Positions 38,406 to 49,314 are shown, counted from the first letter of the stretch. The stretch is DNA of 64,000 bases from Candidatus Margulisiibacteriota bacterium (GCA_028715625.1 JAQURL010000004.1:2061-66060), one strand, 5' to 3'. Translations and numbers: made by a program. Notes: a model not told the origin generated them from the sequence alone.

Positions 38406-38450
38406 TGGTTGCGGGGGTAGGACTTGAACCTACGACCTTCGGGTTATGAG
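38406..38450. repeat. attL: 45-bp direct repeat identical to the 3' half of tRNA-fMet (49239-49283)
   Basis: A perfect 45/45 match to the tRNA 3' end through the anticodon loop; the sequence diverges immediately on both sides. Confidence 0.75.
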
Positions 38451-38697
38451 AACTAGAAAACATGATTACTGTAAGCCTTGCAATGATTGACAGATGGGTT
38501 GTTTATGCTGATTATGTGGAAAATGTATTTTCTTCCAGAATTTCTACCTTTTCTATTATTTGTATATTCCTCACTAAATATTATTAATTGTGTGTATGGT
38601 TAGTGTATAGAGTTCTATTGGGAATATGTAATCGTTTCTTTATTTATTATAACGCAGTATGATTATTAATAGATTTAACTATCCGGAGGTGTAATTA

Positions 38698-38985
38698 ATG
38701 CATATTCAATTAAAAGGTAAAGATAGTGGATTGTTAAAGGAAGTTAAACTTGGGTTTTCTTGGACAACTTTCTTTTTTGGATTTTTACCGGCATTATTCC
38801 GTGGTGATTTAAAGTGGGCTATTATTATGCTTCTTCTTGCACTTTGTACTTTTTATATCACATGGTTAATGTTTCCATTTATCTATAACAAATTGTATAT
38901 AAAGGAACTCCTTGAAAAAGGATACGTCCCAGCTAATGAACAAAGCAAAACAATGCTAATTAATAAAGGAATAATTTCAAGCTAG
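38698..38985 (+). CDS. DUF2628-like small membrane protein
   Basis: The N-terminal GFSWTTFFFGFLPALFRGDLKWAII pattern and a strong GGAGG RBS. Confidence 0.5.
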   Translation: MHIQLKGKDSGLLKEVKLGFSWTTFFFGFLPALFRGDLKWAIIMLLLALCTFYITWLMFPFIYNKLYIKELLEKGYVPANEQSKTMLINKGIISS

Positions 38986-39000
38986 GTAAGGAATTGATCT

Positions 39001-39723
39001 ATGAAAAGTAAATTCTTTATTACATTATTAGGTCTTTTGTGTTTTTCTGTAATCCTTGCTGAAGAGATTGAAAATTCTAATATTTACTTCTTACAAGGAA
39101 ATGACAAGTCCTTACGCTCAGATTACACAGGAGCGATAGAAGACTATACGGTAGCGATCGAGCTGAATCCTGAAAACGAAGAGGCTTATACTGCTCGGGG
39201 GTCGTGTAAATCAATACAAAAGGGCTATATTGAAGCCATTCAAGACTTTACTAAAGCAATACAGATTAATTCAAAAAAAGAAGAATATTATTATTATCGA
39301 GGGAAAGCAAAGTTTAGTCTAAAAGACTACCTGGAAGCTATAAAAGATTTTAGCAAAGCAATCGAACTTAATCCTGGATATGCAGATGCTTATTGCAATA
39401 GAGGATCTGCTAAATACAATGTAAAAGAAGATGTTGCAGCCATAAAAGATTACAGCAAAGCAATCGAACTTAATCCTAAATATTCAGAAGCCTTTTATTA
39501 TCGAGGGAAAGCAAAGTTAAAACCAAAAGCCTACTCAGCGGCCATAAAAGATTTCAGCAAAGCAATTGAACTTAATCCTAGATATGCGCTAGCTTATTAC
39601 GCTAGAGGATCTGCTAAAATAATGCTCAACGATAAACAAGGGGCATTAGAGGATTTAAGTATTGCAGGAGAACTTGGTTATATCGAAGCTTACATAGCCA
39701 TAAGAAGTATACAAAATTTCTGA
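39001..39723 (+). CDS. Exported TPR-repeat protein (≥5 TPR units)
   Basis: A signal peptide and repeated A..Y…AI.D..KAIELNP.Y..AY..RG.AK units encoded by near-identical 102-bp DNA repeats. Confidence 0.75.
   Translation: MKSKFFITLLGLLCFSVILAEEIENSNIYFLQGNDKSLRSDYTGAIEDYTVAIELNPENEEAYTARGSCKSIQKGYIEAIQDFTKAIQINSKKEEYYYYRGKAKFSLKDYLEAIKDFSKAIELNPGYADAYCNRGSAKYNVKEDVAAIKDYSKAIELNPKYSEAFYYRGKAKLKPKAYSAAIKDFSKAIELNPRYALAYYARGSAKIMLNDKQGALEDLSIAGELGYIEAYIAIRSIQNF
39241..39648. repeat. Tandem 102-bp DNA repeats (4 units) encoding TPR motifs
   Basis: AAAGATTT(T/A/C)AGCAAAGCAAT(C/T)GAACTTAATCCT recurs at 39343, 39445 and 39547, with a more divergent copy at 39241. Confidence 0.6.
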
Positions 39724-40033
39724 TAAATCACAATAAACATATAAAAATTTATAGTATTAGTCTTTTAGAGTATTAGGTTTTATTCACCAGTTTCATTATT
39801 TTGATAAATAACTATTATATCGATAATTTAGACTTATTATAATCTTTACTTTTTCTTTTTTTCTATTCATTATTTTATTATAAAAGAAAAGTGATTGTTA
39901 TCTATATTATATGAATTATAGGCTAATTACTATAAGGCTTAAAGAACAATATCGATTTATTAATAATCGATATTAAAAACAAATCATTAAATAATCAGAG
40001 ATAATTAAAAAAAGAAAGTAACAGGGAGTAAAT

Positions 40034-40474
40034 ATGATAAACGAGAAAATTAAGGATAAAAAACAAATACCCGTATTATTTGTCATGCGAACCAATAAAA
40101 ATGGTAATTTAACGAAAAATTCTACCAATGAAGACTTTAGAGAGGTTGCATTAACGCCTATTGATATTTATAGCTCCTACATAGACATCGGAATGTCTAA
40201 AAGAAATGATATGAAATATAAAGAAGCTCTTAAGGCTTTCTCTGCAGCGATTGATATTGATGATTCTCAAGCATCTGCATACTTTAATCGGGCAATAGTA
40301 AAAGAAGAATTGAAGGATTATGAGGGTGCATTGAATGATTACGATCAAGTTATTTATTTAGACAATCATTACACAGAAGCATATATATATCGGGGAGAGT
40401 TAAAAGCCATATTGAAAGATGATATGGGATCAATTAGAGACTTTTTATTAGCAATATATTACAAAATTAAATGA
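40034..40474 (+). CDS. TPR-repeat protein (cytoplasmic)
   Basis: Three TPR-like units (…AYFNRAIVKEELKDYEGALNDYDQVIYLDNHYTEAYIYRG…). Confidence 0.6.
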   Translation: MINEKIKDKKQIPVLFVMRTNKNGNLTKNSTNEDFREVALTPIDIYSSYIDIGMSKRNDMKYKEALKAFSAAIDIDDSQASAYFNRAIVKEELKDYEGALNDYDQVIYLDNHYTEAYIYRGELKAILKDDMGSIRDFLLAIYYKIK

Positions 40475-40615
40475 TTTTTTTACACTATTTATAAGGGATA
40501 TATGTTAAATCAGCAAAAAGACACTTCTAAGACCAGACAAAACACTGTTCTAGTACCTTCTAACCCCATGCAAAACACTTCTAATACCATGCTTTTTGTT
40601 CTAAGACGCTCTACC

Positions 40616-48285: not shown

Positions 48286-48321
48286 AGTATGCTATGAATT
48301 CGAGTTAATATGTAAAAAGAA

Positions 48322-49155
48322 ATGAAAATTGGTTCGACTAAAACTTTTATTGATGCTTTAAATAACATAACAACAAGTGATGATTATGAGTTGTTTTTTC
48401 GAGGCCATTCACAAGAAAAAAAATATAGTTTGATTCCTGCAATTTATAGGCCTAAATATATAAATTTTTTAAGGAATGAGGATCGAATATTCAGAGAAAT
48501 TCTTTCATATCTGCCTGAAGATTTCAGAAATGAAAAAACTACATTTGATTGTCTTGTAAAAATGCAACATTATTCAATACCTACTAGACTGTTGGATTTG
48601 ACAAAAAATCCTCTTGTAGCCCTTTACTTTGCAGCGAGAAAAGATATAAAATTAAGAGGCGAAGTAGTCGTTCTTAAAATACCCAAAAAAGAAATTCGTC
48701 ATTTTGAAAGTGACAGTGTTTCAATTGTATCAAATCTTTCAAAACGTCCATTCAATTTTGATATTTCAGGATACAAGATCAATCGAATTAATATATTCAA
48801 CAAGAAAAAAGAGATAAGCTACCTTCTTCATGAAATAAAAAGTGAAAAACCATATTTTTTGTCAATTATTGAGCCAAAAACGATTGGTTCCGTTTTATGT
48901 GTTAACCCCAAAATGAATAATCAAAGAATACTACGACAAGAAGGTGCATTTCTTTTGTTTGGTATTAATCAAACAAAAGAAATGCCTGCAACAATTCAAA
49001 AAGATTGGATATTATTTAATAGCGAAAAGAAAAAATTTTTAATCTATCAGAAAGAAAAAATTTTGAATGAATTAAATCGCGTAGGCATAAACGAAAGGTT
49101 TTTATTTCCGGAGCTAGATAAACAAGCAGAATTTTTAAAGGCAAAATACGCTTAA
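48322..49155 (+). CDS. FRG-domain protein
   Basis: ELFFRGHS, MQHYSIPTRLLDLTKNPLVALYFAA and NQRILRQEGAFLLF match the FRG domain (PF08867) conserved blocks. Confidence 0.75.
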   Translation: MKIGSTKTFIDALNNITTSDDYELFFRGHSQEKKYSLIPAIYRPKYINFLRNEDRIFREILSYLPEDFRNEKTTFDCLVKMQHYSIPTRLLDLTKNPLVALYFAARKDIKLRGEVVVLKIPKKEIRHFESDSVSIVSNLSKRPFNFDISGYKINRINIFNKKKEISYLLHEIKSEKPYFLSIIEPKTIGSVLCVNPKMNNQRILRQEGAFLLFGINQTKEMPATIQKDWILFNSEKKKFLIYQKEKILNELNRVGINERFLFPELDKQAEFLKAKYA

Positions 49156-49200
49156 AGACGGTTACCCCATTGTGTGTATAGACTGTGTAAAATCTTAAAA

Positions 49201-49228
49201 ATAAAAAACCTCTAGTTTCCTAGAGGTC
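49201..49228 (-). terminator. Rho-independent terminator of tRNA-fMet (minus strand)
   Basis: A 7-bp perfect stem CCTCTAG/CTAGAGG with a 4-nt loop, followed on the minus strand by TTTTTTAT. Confidence 0.45.
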
Positions 49229-49238
49229 GCATAATTAC

Positions 49239-49283
49239 TGGTTGCGGGGGTAGGACTTGAACCTACGACCTTCGGGTTATGAG
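49239..49283. repeat. attR: 45-bp direct repeat (3' half of tRNA-fMet) shared with 38406-38450
   Basis: A perfect match to attL. Confidence 0.75.
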
Positions 49284-49314
49284 CCCGACGAGCTACCAAC
49301 TGCTCCACCCCGCG
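49239..49314 (-). tRNA. Initiator tRNA-fMet (anticodon CAT), CCA encoded
   Basis: The reverse complement reads CGCGGGGTGGAGCAGTTGGTAGCTCGTCGGGCTCATAACCCGAAGGTCGTAGGTTCAAGTCCTACCCCCGCAACCA. It has a C1:A72 mismatch and three G:C pairs in the anticodon stem, nearly identical to E. coli tRNA-fMet. Confidence 0.9.

What the first reader, a model, noticed from the sequence alone, without database searches (positions are those of the whole stretch)
38406..49314. ~10.9 kb satellite-like integrative element in initiator tRNA-fMet, with decayed and uncharacterised cargo
A 45-bp perfect direct repeat (38406-38450 = 49239-49283) reproduces the 3' half of the tRNA-fMet gene. This is the classic signature of site-specific integration into a tRNA 3' end. 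Between the repeats lie a tyrosine integrase, an AlpA-like Xis, a Prim-Pol/P4-type primase, three chained tiny basic ORFs, a NUMOD4/HNH endonuclease, an XRE regulator, a truncated serine recombinase, and ~6 kb of unknown cargo. There are no capsid, terminase or tail genes. The int-xis-primase core without structural genes is the architecture of phage satellites (PICI/P4-like/PLE-like), whose accessory slots are known hotspots for anti-phage systems. The island is visibly more AT-rich than its flanks.
Basis: partly seen in the sequence, partly recalled or inferred. Interest (0 to 1): 0.75.

Follow-up and report, generated by a model that had tools for sequence, protein, structure and literature searches.

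The report
Integrative replicating island in initiator tRNA
A 10.8-kb mobile island sits in the initiator tRNA-fMet gene of an uncultivated Margulisbacteria genome. It belongs to a small family of similar islands that all use this tRNA, is largely intact rather than decayed, carries a candidate anti-phage gene, and cannot be shown from sequence to be a phage satellite.

Summary
A perfect 45-nt direct repeat (38406-38450 = 49239-49283) duplicates nucleotides 32-76 of the window's only tRNA, an initiator tRNA-fMet. The 10.8 kb between the copies is compositionally foreign (32.1% vs 37.8% GC).

The island encodes an intact tyrosine integrase, an AlpA-type HTH protein, an AEP-primase/D5-helicase, an XRE regulator and a NUMOD4/HNH nuclease. 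No protein matches a capsid, terminase or tail family.

Comparison changes the reading of the cargo. The integrase belongs to a tight clade found in Margulisbacteria. Three other members lie next to tRNA-fMet. Both with a detectable second copy have it starting at the same anticodon-loop base.

Much of the "unknown, decayed cargo" is conserved backbone in a related element (L033). The "truncated" serine recombinase is a naturally short (~250 aa) form under purifying selection. Relatives swap the replication gene for a different one.

The truly variable slots lie at the two ends. The slot between integrase and tRNA holds an FRG-domain protein (PADLOC candidate PDC-S15). Relatives carry PDC-M11A or a type II restriction-modification system.

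Verdict: a new member of a known kind, the tRNA-integrating int-AlpA-primase islands that resemble tycheposons, PICMIs and "Type C PICIs". Satellite status is untested.

The parts
38406..38450 (-). attL: partial copy of tRNA-fMet nucleotides 32-76 (distal end of the island)
   Evidence: Perfect 45-nt direct repeat. Not a tRNA gene. The adjacent 31 nt are unrelated to the tRNA 5' half.
38587..38607 (+). 21-nt motif ATTGTGTGTATGGTTAGTGTA; possible arm-type integrase site (inference only)
   Evidence: It is 81% identical to 49169-49189 (D14). The exact 11-mer ATTGTGTGTAT occurs only at the two island ends in the window. The motif count allowing 2 mismatches is not above chance.
38698..38985 (+). 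95-aa small membrane protein, accessory (attL-proximal cargo)
   Evidence: phrog_4915, unknown function, E 1.9e-23. No Pfam hit. No homologue in the related elements.
39001..39723 (+). 240-aa TPR protein with an N-terminal signal-like peptide, accessory cargo
   Evidence: TPR_11/TPR_1, E 1e-34. phrog_7590. A 102-nt tandem unit corresponds to the TPR repeats.
40034..40474 (+). 146-aa TPR protein; only its N-terminal ~25 aa are echoed in L033
   Evidence: Pfam TPR. Weak tblastn hit to L033 1361-1426.
40616..41182 (-). 188-aa backbone protein of unknown function (u188)
   Evidence: 33% identical to the syntenic 200-aa gene of L033. No Pfam, PHROG, PADLOC, NCBIfam or PDB hit. The AF2 model is unusable, pLDDT 51.
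41295..41528 (+). 77-aa acidic backbone protein (u77) overlapping the start of the serine recombinase gene
   Evidence: 51% identical to the syntenic 68-aa gene of L033, which also overlaps its recombinase gene.
41497..42273 (+). 258-aa short serine recombinase (Resolvase domain plus the first part of the Recombinase domain), conserved and intact
   Evidence: Pfam. 72% identical to the L033 250-aa protein, with the same C-terminus. pN 0.18 with pS saturated. The nearest ~60 cluster representatives are mostly 220-290 aa; the first protein over 400 aa appears at rank 64.
42298..42558 (-). 86-aa XRE/HTH_3 regulator, transcribed divergently from the next two genes
   Evidence: Pfam HTH_3. PHROG repressor families. 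65% identical to the syntenic L033 gene.
42645..43115 (+). 156-aa protein with an N-terminal hydrophobic segment (u156), weakly conserved backbone
   Evidence: 26% identity to the L033 152-aa gene. No family hits.
43105..43578 (+). 157-aa protein with an N-terminal hydrophobic segment (u157), unknown function
   Evidence: No family hits. No homologue in the related elements.
43715..44158 (-). NUMOD4/HNH-type endonuclease. The likely start is M35; the ORF runs up to 44260.
   Evidence: NUMOD4, E 9e-9. PHROG HNH endonuclease and PADLOC HEase. Syntenic homologues in L034 (70%), L033 (60%) and L003 (29%).
44380..44775 (+). Three chained small basic ORFs (42, 44 and 47 aa). The first two are similar to each other.
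   Evidence: t42/t44-like ORFs are conserved in L034 (55-56%) and a t44-like ORF in L033 (46%). They lie upstream of the replication gene: directly upstream in L034, about 800 nt upstream in L033.
44790..47063 (+). 757-aa replication protein: N-terminal AEP primase-polymerase, D5_N, SF3 helicase (DUF5906) and Pox_D5 C-terminal domain
   Evidence: Pfam and TIGR01613. PHROG DNA primase, E 3e-88. The AEP motifs (D80, D82, H111) and Walker A (G506...K510, S511) are invariant in alignment A1. 56% identical to the L003 protein.
47056..47268 (+). AlpA-type HTH_17 protein (likely excisionase or regulator). The start is taken at M17 of the ORF that begins at 47008.
   Evidence: HTH_17, E 1.8e-8. phrog_66 excisionase/regulator. 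47-69% identical homologues directly upstream of the integrase in L003, L033, L034, L035 and L036.
47281..48285 (+). 334-aa tyrosine integrase, transcribed towards the tRNA
   Evidence: Phage_integrase, E 1e-33. phrog_1. The catalytic R196, H282, R285, H308 and Y317 are invariant in A5. A clade of ~25 proteins at 38-67% identity includes members annotated as Margulisbacteria.
48322..49155 (+). 277-aa FRG-domain protein = PADLOC candidate defence gene PDC-S15, in the variable slot between the integrase and the tRNA
   Evidence: FRG, E 7e-21. PDC-S15, E 4.7e-99. phrog_4962. No homologue in the four related elements.
49169..49189 (+). Second copy of the 21-nt motif (ATTGTGTGTATAGACTGTGTA)
49207..49228 (-). 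Element-encoded terminator-like hairpin plus T-run, 10 nt after the tRNA 3' end
   Evidence: 9-bp stem followed by TTTTATTTTT on the minus strand. It lies inside the island boundary.
49239..49314 (-). Intact initiator tRNA-fMet. Its 3' 45 nt (49239-49283) form attR.
   Evidence: ARAGORN. Rfam tRNA, 67.9 bits. Sequence read.

Best explanation
The region 38406-49283 is one site-specific integrative element of about 10.8 kb. It belongs to a family, found so far in Margulisbacteria metagenome assemblies, whose tyrosine integrase recombines with initiator tRNA-fMet. The identity segment starts at the anticodon loop.

The element carries its own copy of tRNA nucleotides 32-76 and its own terminator. 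Insertion therefore regenerates a complete, terminated tRNA-fMet. A 45-nt partial copy is left at the far end.

Its organisation is modular:
1. A rightward operon of small basic ORFs, a replication protein, AlpA and the integrase. The replication gene is exchangeable: AEP-primase/D5-helicase here and in L003, an AAA_25 helicase in L033, and a VapE-PolA fusion in L034.
2. A conserved backbone of XRE regulator, a short serine recombinase with a small upstream partner, u188 and an HNH nuclease.
3. Variable cargo at both ends. Next to the tRNA sits an FRG-domain protein (PDC-S15), which the literature predicts to be an ART-superfamily NADase-type anti-phage effector. At the far end sit a TPR protein with a signal-like N-terminus and a small membrane protein.

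Inferred life cycle: the integrase, with AlpA, excises a circle carrying attP; the primase-helicase replicates it; the serine recombinase may resolve multimers.

Shown: the anatomy, the intactness of the catalytic motifs, the family, the shared target site, the module swapping and the foreign composition. Inferred: excision, replication, defence activity and the route of cell-to-cell transfer (helper-phage capsids or vesicles), which remains open.
For: - Perfect 45-nt repeat equal to the tRNA 3' part.
- Foreign composition.
- The integrase clade includes members annotated as Margulisbacteria.
- L035 is a 9.6-kb element bounded by a 49-nt repeat in tRNA-fMet. L132 is a 10.6-kb element bounded by a 25-nt repeat. 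L133 has its integrase next to tRNA-fMet. All three have the integrase pointing at the tRNA. The partial copies in the window, L035 and L132 all start at CTCATAACC.
- L014 and L016 keep Omp85-TamB-PurU-tRNA-fMet synteny without the island.
- Shared backbone and swapped replication genes.
- Purifying selection: pN 0.18-0.42 with pS saturated.
- Intact catalytic residues.
- The short recombinase belongs to a family of naturally short proteins.
- Defence-type cargo in three family members.
- Element-encoded terminator behind the tRNA.
- FRG as a predicted NADase effector (PMC9503650).
Against: - No empty site from the same species and no attP junction could be found. The organism is absent from the JGI contig collection, and the short-read unitigs simply break at the repeat.
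- No origin or iterons were detected.
- The putative arm-type sites are weak.
- The L033 element lies about 8 kb from PurU in the opposite orientation with no tRNA beside PurU. The locus history is therefore not uniform.
- PDC-S15 is only a candidate defence gene; no experimental test was found.
Confidence: 0.8

Rival explanations
1. It is a true helper-dependent phage satellite of the minimal (PICMI-like) type. A phage infection induces excision and replication, and the element is packaged, possibly as concatemers, in the helper's capsids without any packaging gene of its own.
For: - int + AlpA (PF12728) + DUF5906 primase is exactly the essential gene set of PICMI (PMC10803314).
- The size of 10.8 kb is typical of satellites; the P4-like median is 10 kb (PMC10085698).
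- Defence cargo sits at a hotspot.
- After the L003 element, the next closest primase (38% identity over the full length) lies in ~40-47 kb contigs that look like phage genomes, with PolA and queuosine genes. One of these contigs (L007) comes from sample ERZ27315402, which also yielded the L014 contig that shares the window's Omp85-TamB-PurU-tRNA-fMet synteny.
Against: - No capsid-remodelling, terS, cos/pac or interference gene was recognised.
- IMG/VR holds no close relative of the integrase (<=33%) or the primase (<=37%).
- SatelliteFinder's authors treat this three-gene set as ambiguous 'Type C' (PMC10085698).
- Cargo-carrying tycheposons with the same core were not found in viral fractions (bioRxiv 10.1101/2020.12.28.424599).
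Confidence: 0.25
2. It is a once-mobile island that is now fixed. It is maintained for its cargo and no longer excises.
For: No excision or empty-site evidence was obtained. The exact sequence is present in only one sample.
Against: - The 45-nt repeats are still perfect.
- The integrase, primase and serine recombinase keep all invariant catalytic residues.
- The compared backbone genes are under purifying selection.
- Composition has not ameliorated towards the host.
Confidence: 0.12
3. It is a decayed prophage remnant that has lost its structural genes, which is the first reader's 'decayed' reading.
For: The primase, HNH nuclease, XRE regulator, integrase and several cargo genes belong to phage-associated PHROG families.
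Against: - The three family members bounded by repeats are 9.6-10.9 kb, and none of the seven elements shows a structural gene.
- The backbone is syntenic and conserved.
- The supposedly truncated recombinase is full-length for its family.
- No pseudogene fragments were seen.
Confidence: 0.04
4. It is an integrative mobilizable element that moves by conjugation using another element's machinery.
For: It carries a site-specific integrase together with a replication protein. Such modules also occur in mobilizable elements (general knowledge).
Against: No relaxase, coupling protein or type IV secretion gene was hit in Pfam or NCBIfam for any island protein. No oriT-like structure was identified.
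Confidence: 0.04

Closest known systems
Tycheposons (Prochlorococcus and other marine bacteria; bioRxiv 10.1101/2020.12.28.424599)
   Same: - A tyrosine recombinase integrates at the 3' part of a tRNA, one of the targets being a tRNA-Met(CAT), and leaves a partial tRNA copy.
- There is an excisionase and an exchangeable primase/helicase replication module.
- Small serine recombinases and endonucleases are among the hallmark genes.
- Cargo serves adaptation or phage interference.
- The tRNA acts as a variable hotspot.
   Different: - Tycheposons are defined by their own integrase lineage (not tested here) and by an inward-facing integrase at the element end.
- Here the integrase faces outward, towards the tRNA, with a cargo gene beyond it.
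- The host phylum differs (Margulisbacteria).
- There is no terS or major capsid gene as in the PICI-like subset.
PICMI, minimal satellites of Vibrionaceae (PMC10803314)
   Same: The core is int + AlpA (HTH_17) + DUF5906-type primase. There are no packaging or capsid-remodelling genes. The element is small and protects its host against phages.
   Different: PICMIs integrate at fis, which is their stated hallmark, and are ~6 kb with six genes. This element targets tRNA-fMet, is 10.8 kb, and has an additional conserved backbone (XRE, short serine recombinase, HNH). No helper phage is known.
P4-like satellites (PMC10085698)
   Same: Integrase, AlpA and a primase-helicase whose C-terminal domain matches TIGR01613 ('P4 family'). 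The size is about 10 kb, integration is at a tRNA, and there are defence hotspots.
   Different: No Psu, Delta, Sid or epsilon gene is present. The primase N-terminus is an AEP domain. By my recollection, not tested here, the P4 alpha protein has a different, toprim-type primase domain. The hosts of P4-like satellites are enterobacteria.
PICI / SaPI family ('Type C PICI' in SatelliteFinder, PMC10085698)
   Same: int + alpA + primase/replicase, with a divergent repressor-type regulator.
   Different: It lacks terS, ppi/cpm or capsid morphogenesis genes. Only 3 of the 5 core components are present, a class the authors exclude as ambiguous.
PADLOC candidate system PDC-S15 / FRG domain (PMC9503650)
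   Same: The 277-aa protein matches PDC-S15 over its full length (E 4.7e-99) and carries PF08867 FRG.
   Different: It is a candidate only. The NADase/ART activity is a prediction from the literature. No solved structure was found.

Membership tests
tRNA-integrating tyrosine-recombinase genomic island | Direct repeat that duplicates the 3' part of an intact tRNA gene | tested here: met
   45/45 nt, tRNA nucleotides 32-76.
tRNA-integrating tyrosine-recombinase genomic island | Intact tyrosine integrase inside the repeats, near the tRNA | tested here: met
   PF00589, E 1e-33. The R..HxxR..H..Y residues are invariant in A5. The gene lies 954 nt from the tRNA.
tRNA-integrating tyrosine-recombinase genomic island | Empty site in related genomes, or independent insertions at the same site | tested here: met
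   Independent insertions at the same tRNA position occur in L035 and L132, and L133 has its integrase next to tRNA-fMet. L014 and L016 keep the synteny without the island. No empty site from the same species was found.
tRNA-integrating tyrosine-recombinase genomic island | Excision to a circular attP form | not testable with these tools
   Raw reads are needed. The unitigs break at the repeat.
Phage satellite (general) | Mobilisation by a helper phage, or presence in viral particles | not testable with these tools
   No close relatives in IMG/VR. No helper phage identified.
P4-like satellite | psu-delta-sid operon and epsilon, in addition to int, alpA and alpha | tested here: not met
   No Pfam, PHROG or NCBIfam hit to these in any island protein.
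PICI (SatelliteFinder Type A/B) | At least 4 of 5 core components, including packaging or capsid-morphogenesis genes | tested here: not met
   Only int, alpA and primase are present, which is Type C (PMC10085698).
cfPICI | Capsid, portal, head-tail connector and terL genes | tested here: not met
   No structural hit.
PICMI | Colocalised int + alpA + prim (DUF5906/DUF3987) | tested here: met
   PF00589, PF12728 and PF19263 lie in one operon.
PICMI | Integration downstream of fis | tested here: not met
   The element is integrated in tRNA-fMet next to purU.
Tycheposon | Site-specific integrase at a tRNA plus a replication-module hallmark | tested here: met
Tycheposon | Tycheposon-specific integrase lineage | not tested
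The clade here is found only in Margulisbacteria-type contigs.
Tycheposon | Inward-facing integrase at the element end | tested here: not met
   The integrase is transcribed towards the tRNA end, and in the window a cargo gene lies beyond it. The orientation is the same in L035, L132 and L133.
Large serine recombinase | Full Recombinase domain, zinc ribbon and coiled coil (~450-600 aa) | tested here: not met
   The protein is 258 aa and matches CcrB positions 8-249 of 542. It belongs to a family of naturally short proteins.
PDC-S15 (PADLOC candidate defence) | Full-length match to the family HMM | tested here: met
   E 4.7e-99, residues 2-276 against profile positions 8-280 of 286.
PDC-S15 (PADLOC candidate defence) | Demonstrated anti-phage activity | not testable with these tools
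   Only listings were found in the literature.

The most novel reading that the evidence does not exclude
The element and its relatives are a previously undescribed family of minimal phage satellites of Margulisbacteria. They would target the initiator tRNA, exchange replication modules with their helper phages (the nearest primase outside the family lies in PolA/queuosine contigs that look like phage genomes), use a short serine recombinase alongside the integrase, and deliver NADase-type (FRG) and other defence genes.
Probability: 0.15. Interest if true: 0.6.

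Novelty: new member of a known kind. Interest (0 to 1): 0.35.

Why it matters
The paper library searched here holds no description of mobile elements of Margulisbacteria, an uncultivated phylum. This locus, with six related contigs, defines a coherent family.

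- The family has a fixed target, initiator tRNA-fMet starting at the anticodon loop.
- It has a conserved backbone and a replication gene that can be exchanged.
- It has cargo slots that hold candidate or known defence genes.

That gives a concrete handle for delimiting islands in such genomes. It also gives a natural setting for the untested FRG/PDC-S15 candidate. It adds another case of the widespread int-AlpA-primase architecture whose transfer route (satellite or vesicle) is still an open question. It does not reveal a new principle.

Tried and rejected
- **Genome scan with the primase alone:** nothing found. With alignment A1 only distant relatives (<=37%) appeared, several beside an integrase and a tRNA, which shows only that the architecture is widespread.
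- **Metagenome scan for the tRNA-PurU junction (empty or occupied site):** no match.
- **Second metagenome scan with integrase alignment A5:** the patterns were too generic and returned only integrases at <=36% identity.
- **IMG/VR scans:** no close integrase or primase relatives.
- **Plasmid database:** only tRNA matches.
- **Iteron/origin search** by k-mer clustering and TRF: only the TPR coding repeats.
- **Arm-type site motif:** not above chance and not seen in relatives.
- **Rfam:** only the tRNA.
- **PDB sequence search** for FRG and u188: nothing.
- **AlphaFold single-sequence models:** u188 gave pLDDT 51 and FRG gave pLDDT 36. Both were too poor for a fold search.
- **The 462-aa gene after the tRNA in L016** is not a homologue of the window's 487-aa flank gene. 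An exact empty-site reconstruction was therefore impossible.
- **Rejected readings:** a second tRNA gene, a truncated recombinase pseudogene, and a decayed prophage.

Full report
**1. Observation**

The repeat finder returns a perfect 45-nt direct repeat at 38406-38450 and 49239-49283. A 25-nt piece of it occurs only at these two places in the window, with none expected by chance in shuffles.

ARAGORN and Rfam find a single tRNA, tRNA-Met(CAT), at 49239-49314 on the minus strand. Its sequence is CGCGGGGTGGAGCAGTTGGTAGCTCGTCGGGCTCATAACCCGAAGGTCGTAGGTTCAAGTCCTACCCCCGCAACCA. It has the bacterial initiator features: a C1:A72 mismatch, A11:U24, and three G-C pairs closing the anticodon stem. These are read directly from the sequence and judged against established knowledge of initiator tRNAs.

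The repeat is tRNA nucleotides 32-76, from the first anticodon-loop base to the CCA end. The bases beside the left copy are unrelated to the tRNA 5' half. The left copy is therefore not a second tRNA gene.

The 10,788 bp between the copies have 32.1% GC against 37.8% elsewhere. No same-size window outside the island falls below 35.5%. The tetranucleotide distance to the rest of the window is 0.245, against at most 0.137 for other segments.

**2. Source**

The proteins are identical to those of an NCBI metagenome-assembled genome labelled Candidatus Margulisbacteria bacterium, on a 66,205-bp contig. Short-read unitigs from run SRR22315506 stop inside the repeat on both sides. The left unitig stops exactly 30 nt into it, as expected for a k=31 assembly graph. 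This confirms that the repeat is real. It says nothing about excision.

**3. Gene content**

From the far end to the tRNA:
- a 95-aa membrane protein (phrog_4915)
- a 240-aa TPR protein with a signal-like N-terminus
- a 146-aa TPR protein
- u188, on the minus strand
- u77, overlapping a 258-aa serine recombinase
- an XRE regulator, on the minus strand
- u156 and u157, both with N-terminal hydrophobic segments
- a NUMOD4/HNH nuclease, on the minus strand
- three chained small basic ORFs
- a 757-aa AEP-primase/D5_N/SF3-helicase protein
- an HTH_17 (AlpA-type) protein
- a 334-aa tyrosine integrase
- a 277-aa FRG-domain protein

A terminator-like hairpin on the tRNA's strand lies 10 nt after the tRNA 3' end and inside the island. 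No protein hits a capsid, portal, terminase, tail, lysis, relaxase or type IV secretion family.

**4. Comparative evidence for a site-specific family**

The integrase has a tight set of about 25 relatives at 38-67% identity. Those that carry a source name are labelled Margulisbacteria or Margulisiibacteriota. Identity then drops to <=32%.

| Locus | Integrase identity | Setting |
|---|---|---|
| L035 (GCA_028702315.1) | 47% | 9.6-kb element bounded by a 49-nt repeat in an initiator-type tRNA-Met; integrase directly beside the tRNA; host context is sigma-54, not PurU |
| L132 | 48% | 10.6-kb element at tRNA-fMet bounded by a 25-nt repeat |
| L133 | 43% | integrase beside tRNA-fMet |

The integrase points at the tRNA in all four cases, counting the window. 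In the window, L035 and L132 the partial copy begins at CTCATAACC. These are independent insertions at one tRNA sublocation.

Two relatives have PurU at 65-67% identity (L014, L016). Both keep the Omp85-Omp85-TamB-like-PurU-tRNA-fMet synteny and have no integrase or primase. Each has different genes after the tRNA. The site behaves as a hotspot. An empty site from the same species was not found.

**5. Backbone versus cargo**

tblastn of all island proteins against the related loci gave the following.

| Locus | Shared with the window |
|---|---|
| L003 | primase 56%, AlpA 69%, integrase 69%, HNH 29% |
| L034 | HNH 70%, small ORFs t42/t44 55-56%, AlpA 67%, integrase 67% |
| L033 | u188 33%, u77 51%, serine recombinase 71%, XRE 65%, u156 26%, HNH 60%, t44 46%, AlpA 65%, integrase 62% |

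The genes L033 shares with the window lie in the same relative order and orientation. Much of the region 40.6-44.8 kb is therefore conserved backbone and not decayed cargo.

The replication gene differs between members. It is a 560-aa AAA_25 helicase in L033 and a 1448-aa VapE-exonuclease-PolA fusion in L034. A t44-like small basic ORF lies upstream of the replication gene in L033 and L034 as well: directly upstream in L034, about 800 nt upstream in L033.

Between the window and L033, synonymous sites are saturated (pS 0.73-0.88) while pN is 0.18-0.42. The serine recombinase is the most conserved of the five genes compared.

The serine recombinase aligns end to end with the 250-aa L033 protein. 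In an exhaustive search its nearest ~60 cluster representatives are mostly 220-290 aa, and they match to within a few residues of their ends. The first protein over 400 aa appears at rank 64. The protein is naturally short and has not been truncated.

**6. Cargo slots**

Genes without homologues in the relatives lie at the two ends. At the attL side are p95, TPR240 and most of TPR146. Between the integrase and the tRNA is the FRG gene.

The FRG protein matches PADLOC candidate PDC-S15 over its full length (E 4.7e-99). The FRG domain has been assigned to the ART superfamily and proposed as a NADase-type antiviral effector (PMC9503650). No experimental test was found.

The same slot holds other genes in relatives. 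In L033 it holds a PDC-M11A (PIN-domain) gene (E 5.6e-96). In L034 it holds a TM2/zinc-ribbon membrane protein. In L035 it is empty. L132 carries a type II restriction-modification pair and a weak TIR-like hit elsewhere in the element.

**7. Mechanism**

Shown:
- an integrated element with intact recombination and replication enzymes (catalytic residues invariant in alignments A1 and A5)
- regeneration of a complete tRNA-fMet with an element-supplied 3' part and terminator
- a family-wide shared target

Inferred from established knowledge of tyrosine integrases and tRNA sublocation preference (Williams 2002, as cited in the tycheposon preprint):
- Crossover occurs within the 45-nt identity.
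- AlpA acts as a directionality factor or regulator.
- The circular form replicates through the primase-helicase.
- The short serine recombinase may resolve multimers.
- XRE acts as the repressor of a divergent switch.

No origin iterons were found. A 21-nt motif present once near each end could be an arm-type integrase site, but it is not statistically supported.

**8. Satellite or not**

SatelliteFinder's authors class int + AlpA + primase alone as 'Type C PICI'. They warn that such sets may be other elements or chance aggregates (PMC10085698). Against that, the experimentally proven PICMI satellites need only int, alpA and prim and have no packaging genes. Their hallmark is integration at fis (PMC10803314).

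Tycheposons share the tRNA target class, the exchangeable replication module and the small serine recombinases. They are defined by their own integrase lineage and an inward-facing terminal integrase, and this element does not have that orientation.

After the L003 element, the next closest primase (38% identity, full length) sits in ~40-47 kb contigs that look like phage genomes, with PolA, queuosine-pathway and dUTPase genes. One of these contigs (L007) is from sample ERZ27315402, which also yielded L014, the contig that shares the window's Omp85-TamB-PurU-tRNA-fMet synteny. This is suggestive of exchange between phages and these elements. No other gene is shared. IMG/VR has no close relatives. 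Helper dependence therefore remains open, and I put it at about 0.25.

**9. Verdict**

The integration reading is strongly supported. 'Decayed' and 'truncated' are wrong. 'Satellite' is unproven.

The element is a new member, in a little-studied phylum, of the known class of tRNA-integrating int-AlpA-primase islands that carry defence cargo. Interest is moderate. The family definition, the initiator-tRNA target, the replication-module swapping and the natural context for PDC-S15 are useful, but none is a new principle.

Noticed in passing
L014:8988-9250 and L016:9000-9290 (not in the window): In both relatives that lack the island, tRNA-fMet and its terminator are followed by a conserved G-rich segment of ~170-200 nt. 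The segment ends in an exact 18-nt copy of that genome's own tRNA 3' end plus a second copy of the terminator. There is no Rfam hit. It could be a miniature integrated remnant or a non-coding RNA that mimics the tRNA 3' end.
   Followed up: partly
L004-L013 (contigs carrying P0003): After the L003 element, the next closest primase (38% identity, full length) lies in ~40-47 kb contigs that look like phage genomes, with DNA PolA, QueC/QueD/QueE/GTP cyclohydrolase I (7-deazaguanine pathway), dUTPase and a PD-(D/E)XK nuclease. One of them (L007) is from sample ERZ27315402, which also yielded the L014 contig.
   Followed up: partly
window 44380-44639; L034:624-852; L033:7001-7117: The first two of the three tiny basic ORFs are similar to each other (shared ...KLNR..PV..Y motif). 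This small protein is conserved upstream of three unrelated replication genes, which suggests a regulator of the replication operon.
   Followed up: partly
L134:11197-17107 (same contig as L033): In the genome with PurU at 56% identity there is no tRNA beside PurU. Between PurU and the related element lie a nitroreductase gene, an Mrr_N-domain protein, a PLD-like protein and two DNA methyltransferases. The element is in the opposite orientation relative to PurU. This is possibly a defence island and/or an inversion.
   Followed up: partly
L132:8822-8953: Three 36-nt imperfect direct repeats, spaced 42 and 54 nt apart, lie in the gap between the 294-aa and 157-aa genes, upstream of the AlpA-integrase pair of that element. 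They are iteron-like. No equivalent exists in the window.
   Followed up: no
window 49279 (end of Logan unitig L001): The right-hand unitig stops only 5 nt into the repeat instead of the expected 30. This implies that other tRNA-fMet variants, from other organisms or strains, share k-mers in that sample.
   Followed up: no
H1 = MT838254.1 (phage collection): A 5,490-nt unannotated 'Bacteriophage sp.' record from human faeces matches residues 45-736 of the primase (77% of its length). It may be a tiny primase-only replicon or satellite.
   Followed up: no
window 36845-38308: The 487-aa gene immediately outside attL has no Pfam, PHROG or PADLOC hit. It has no homologue after the tRNA in L014 or L016. 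Its origin, host or older island material, is unresolved.
   Followed up: partly
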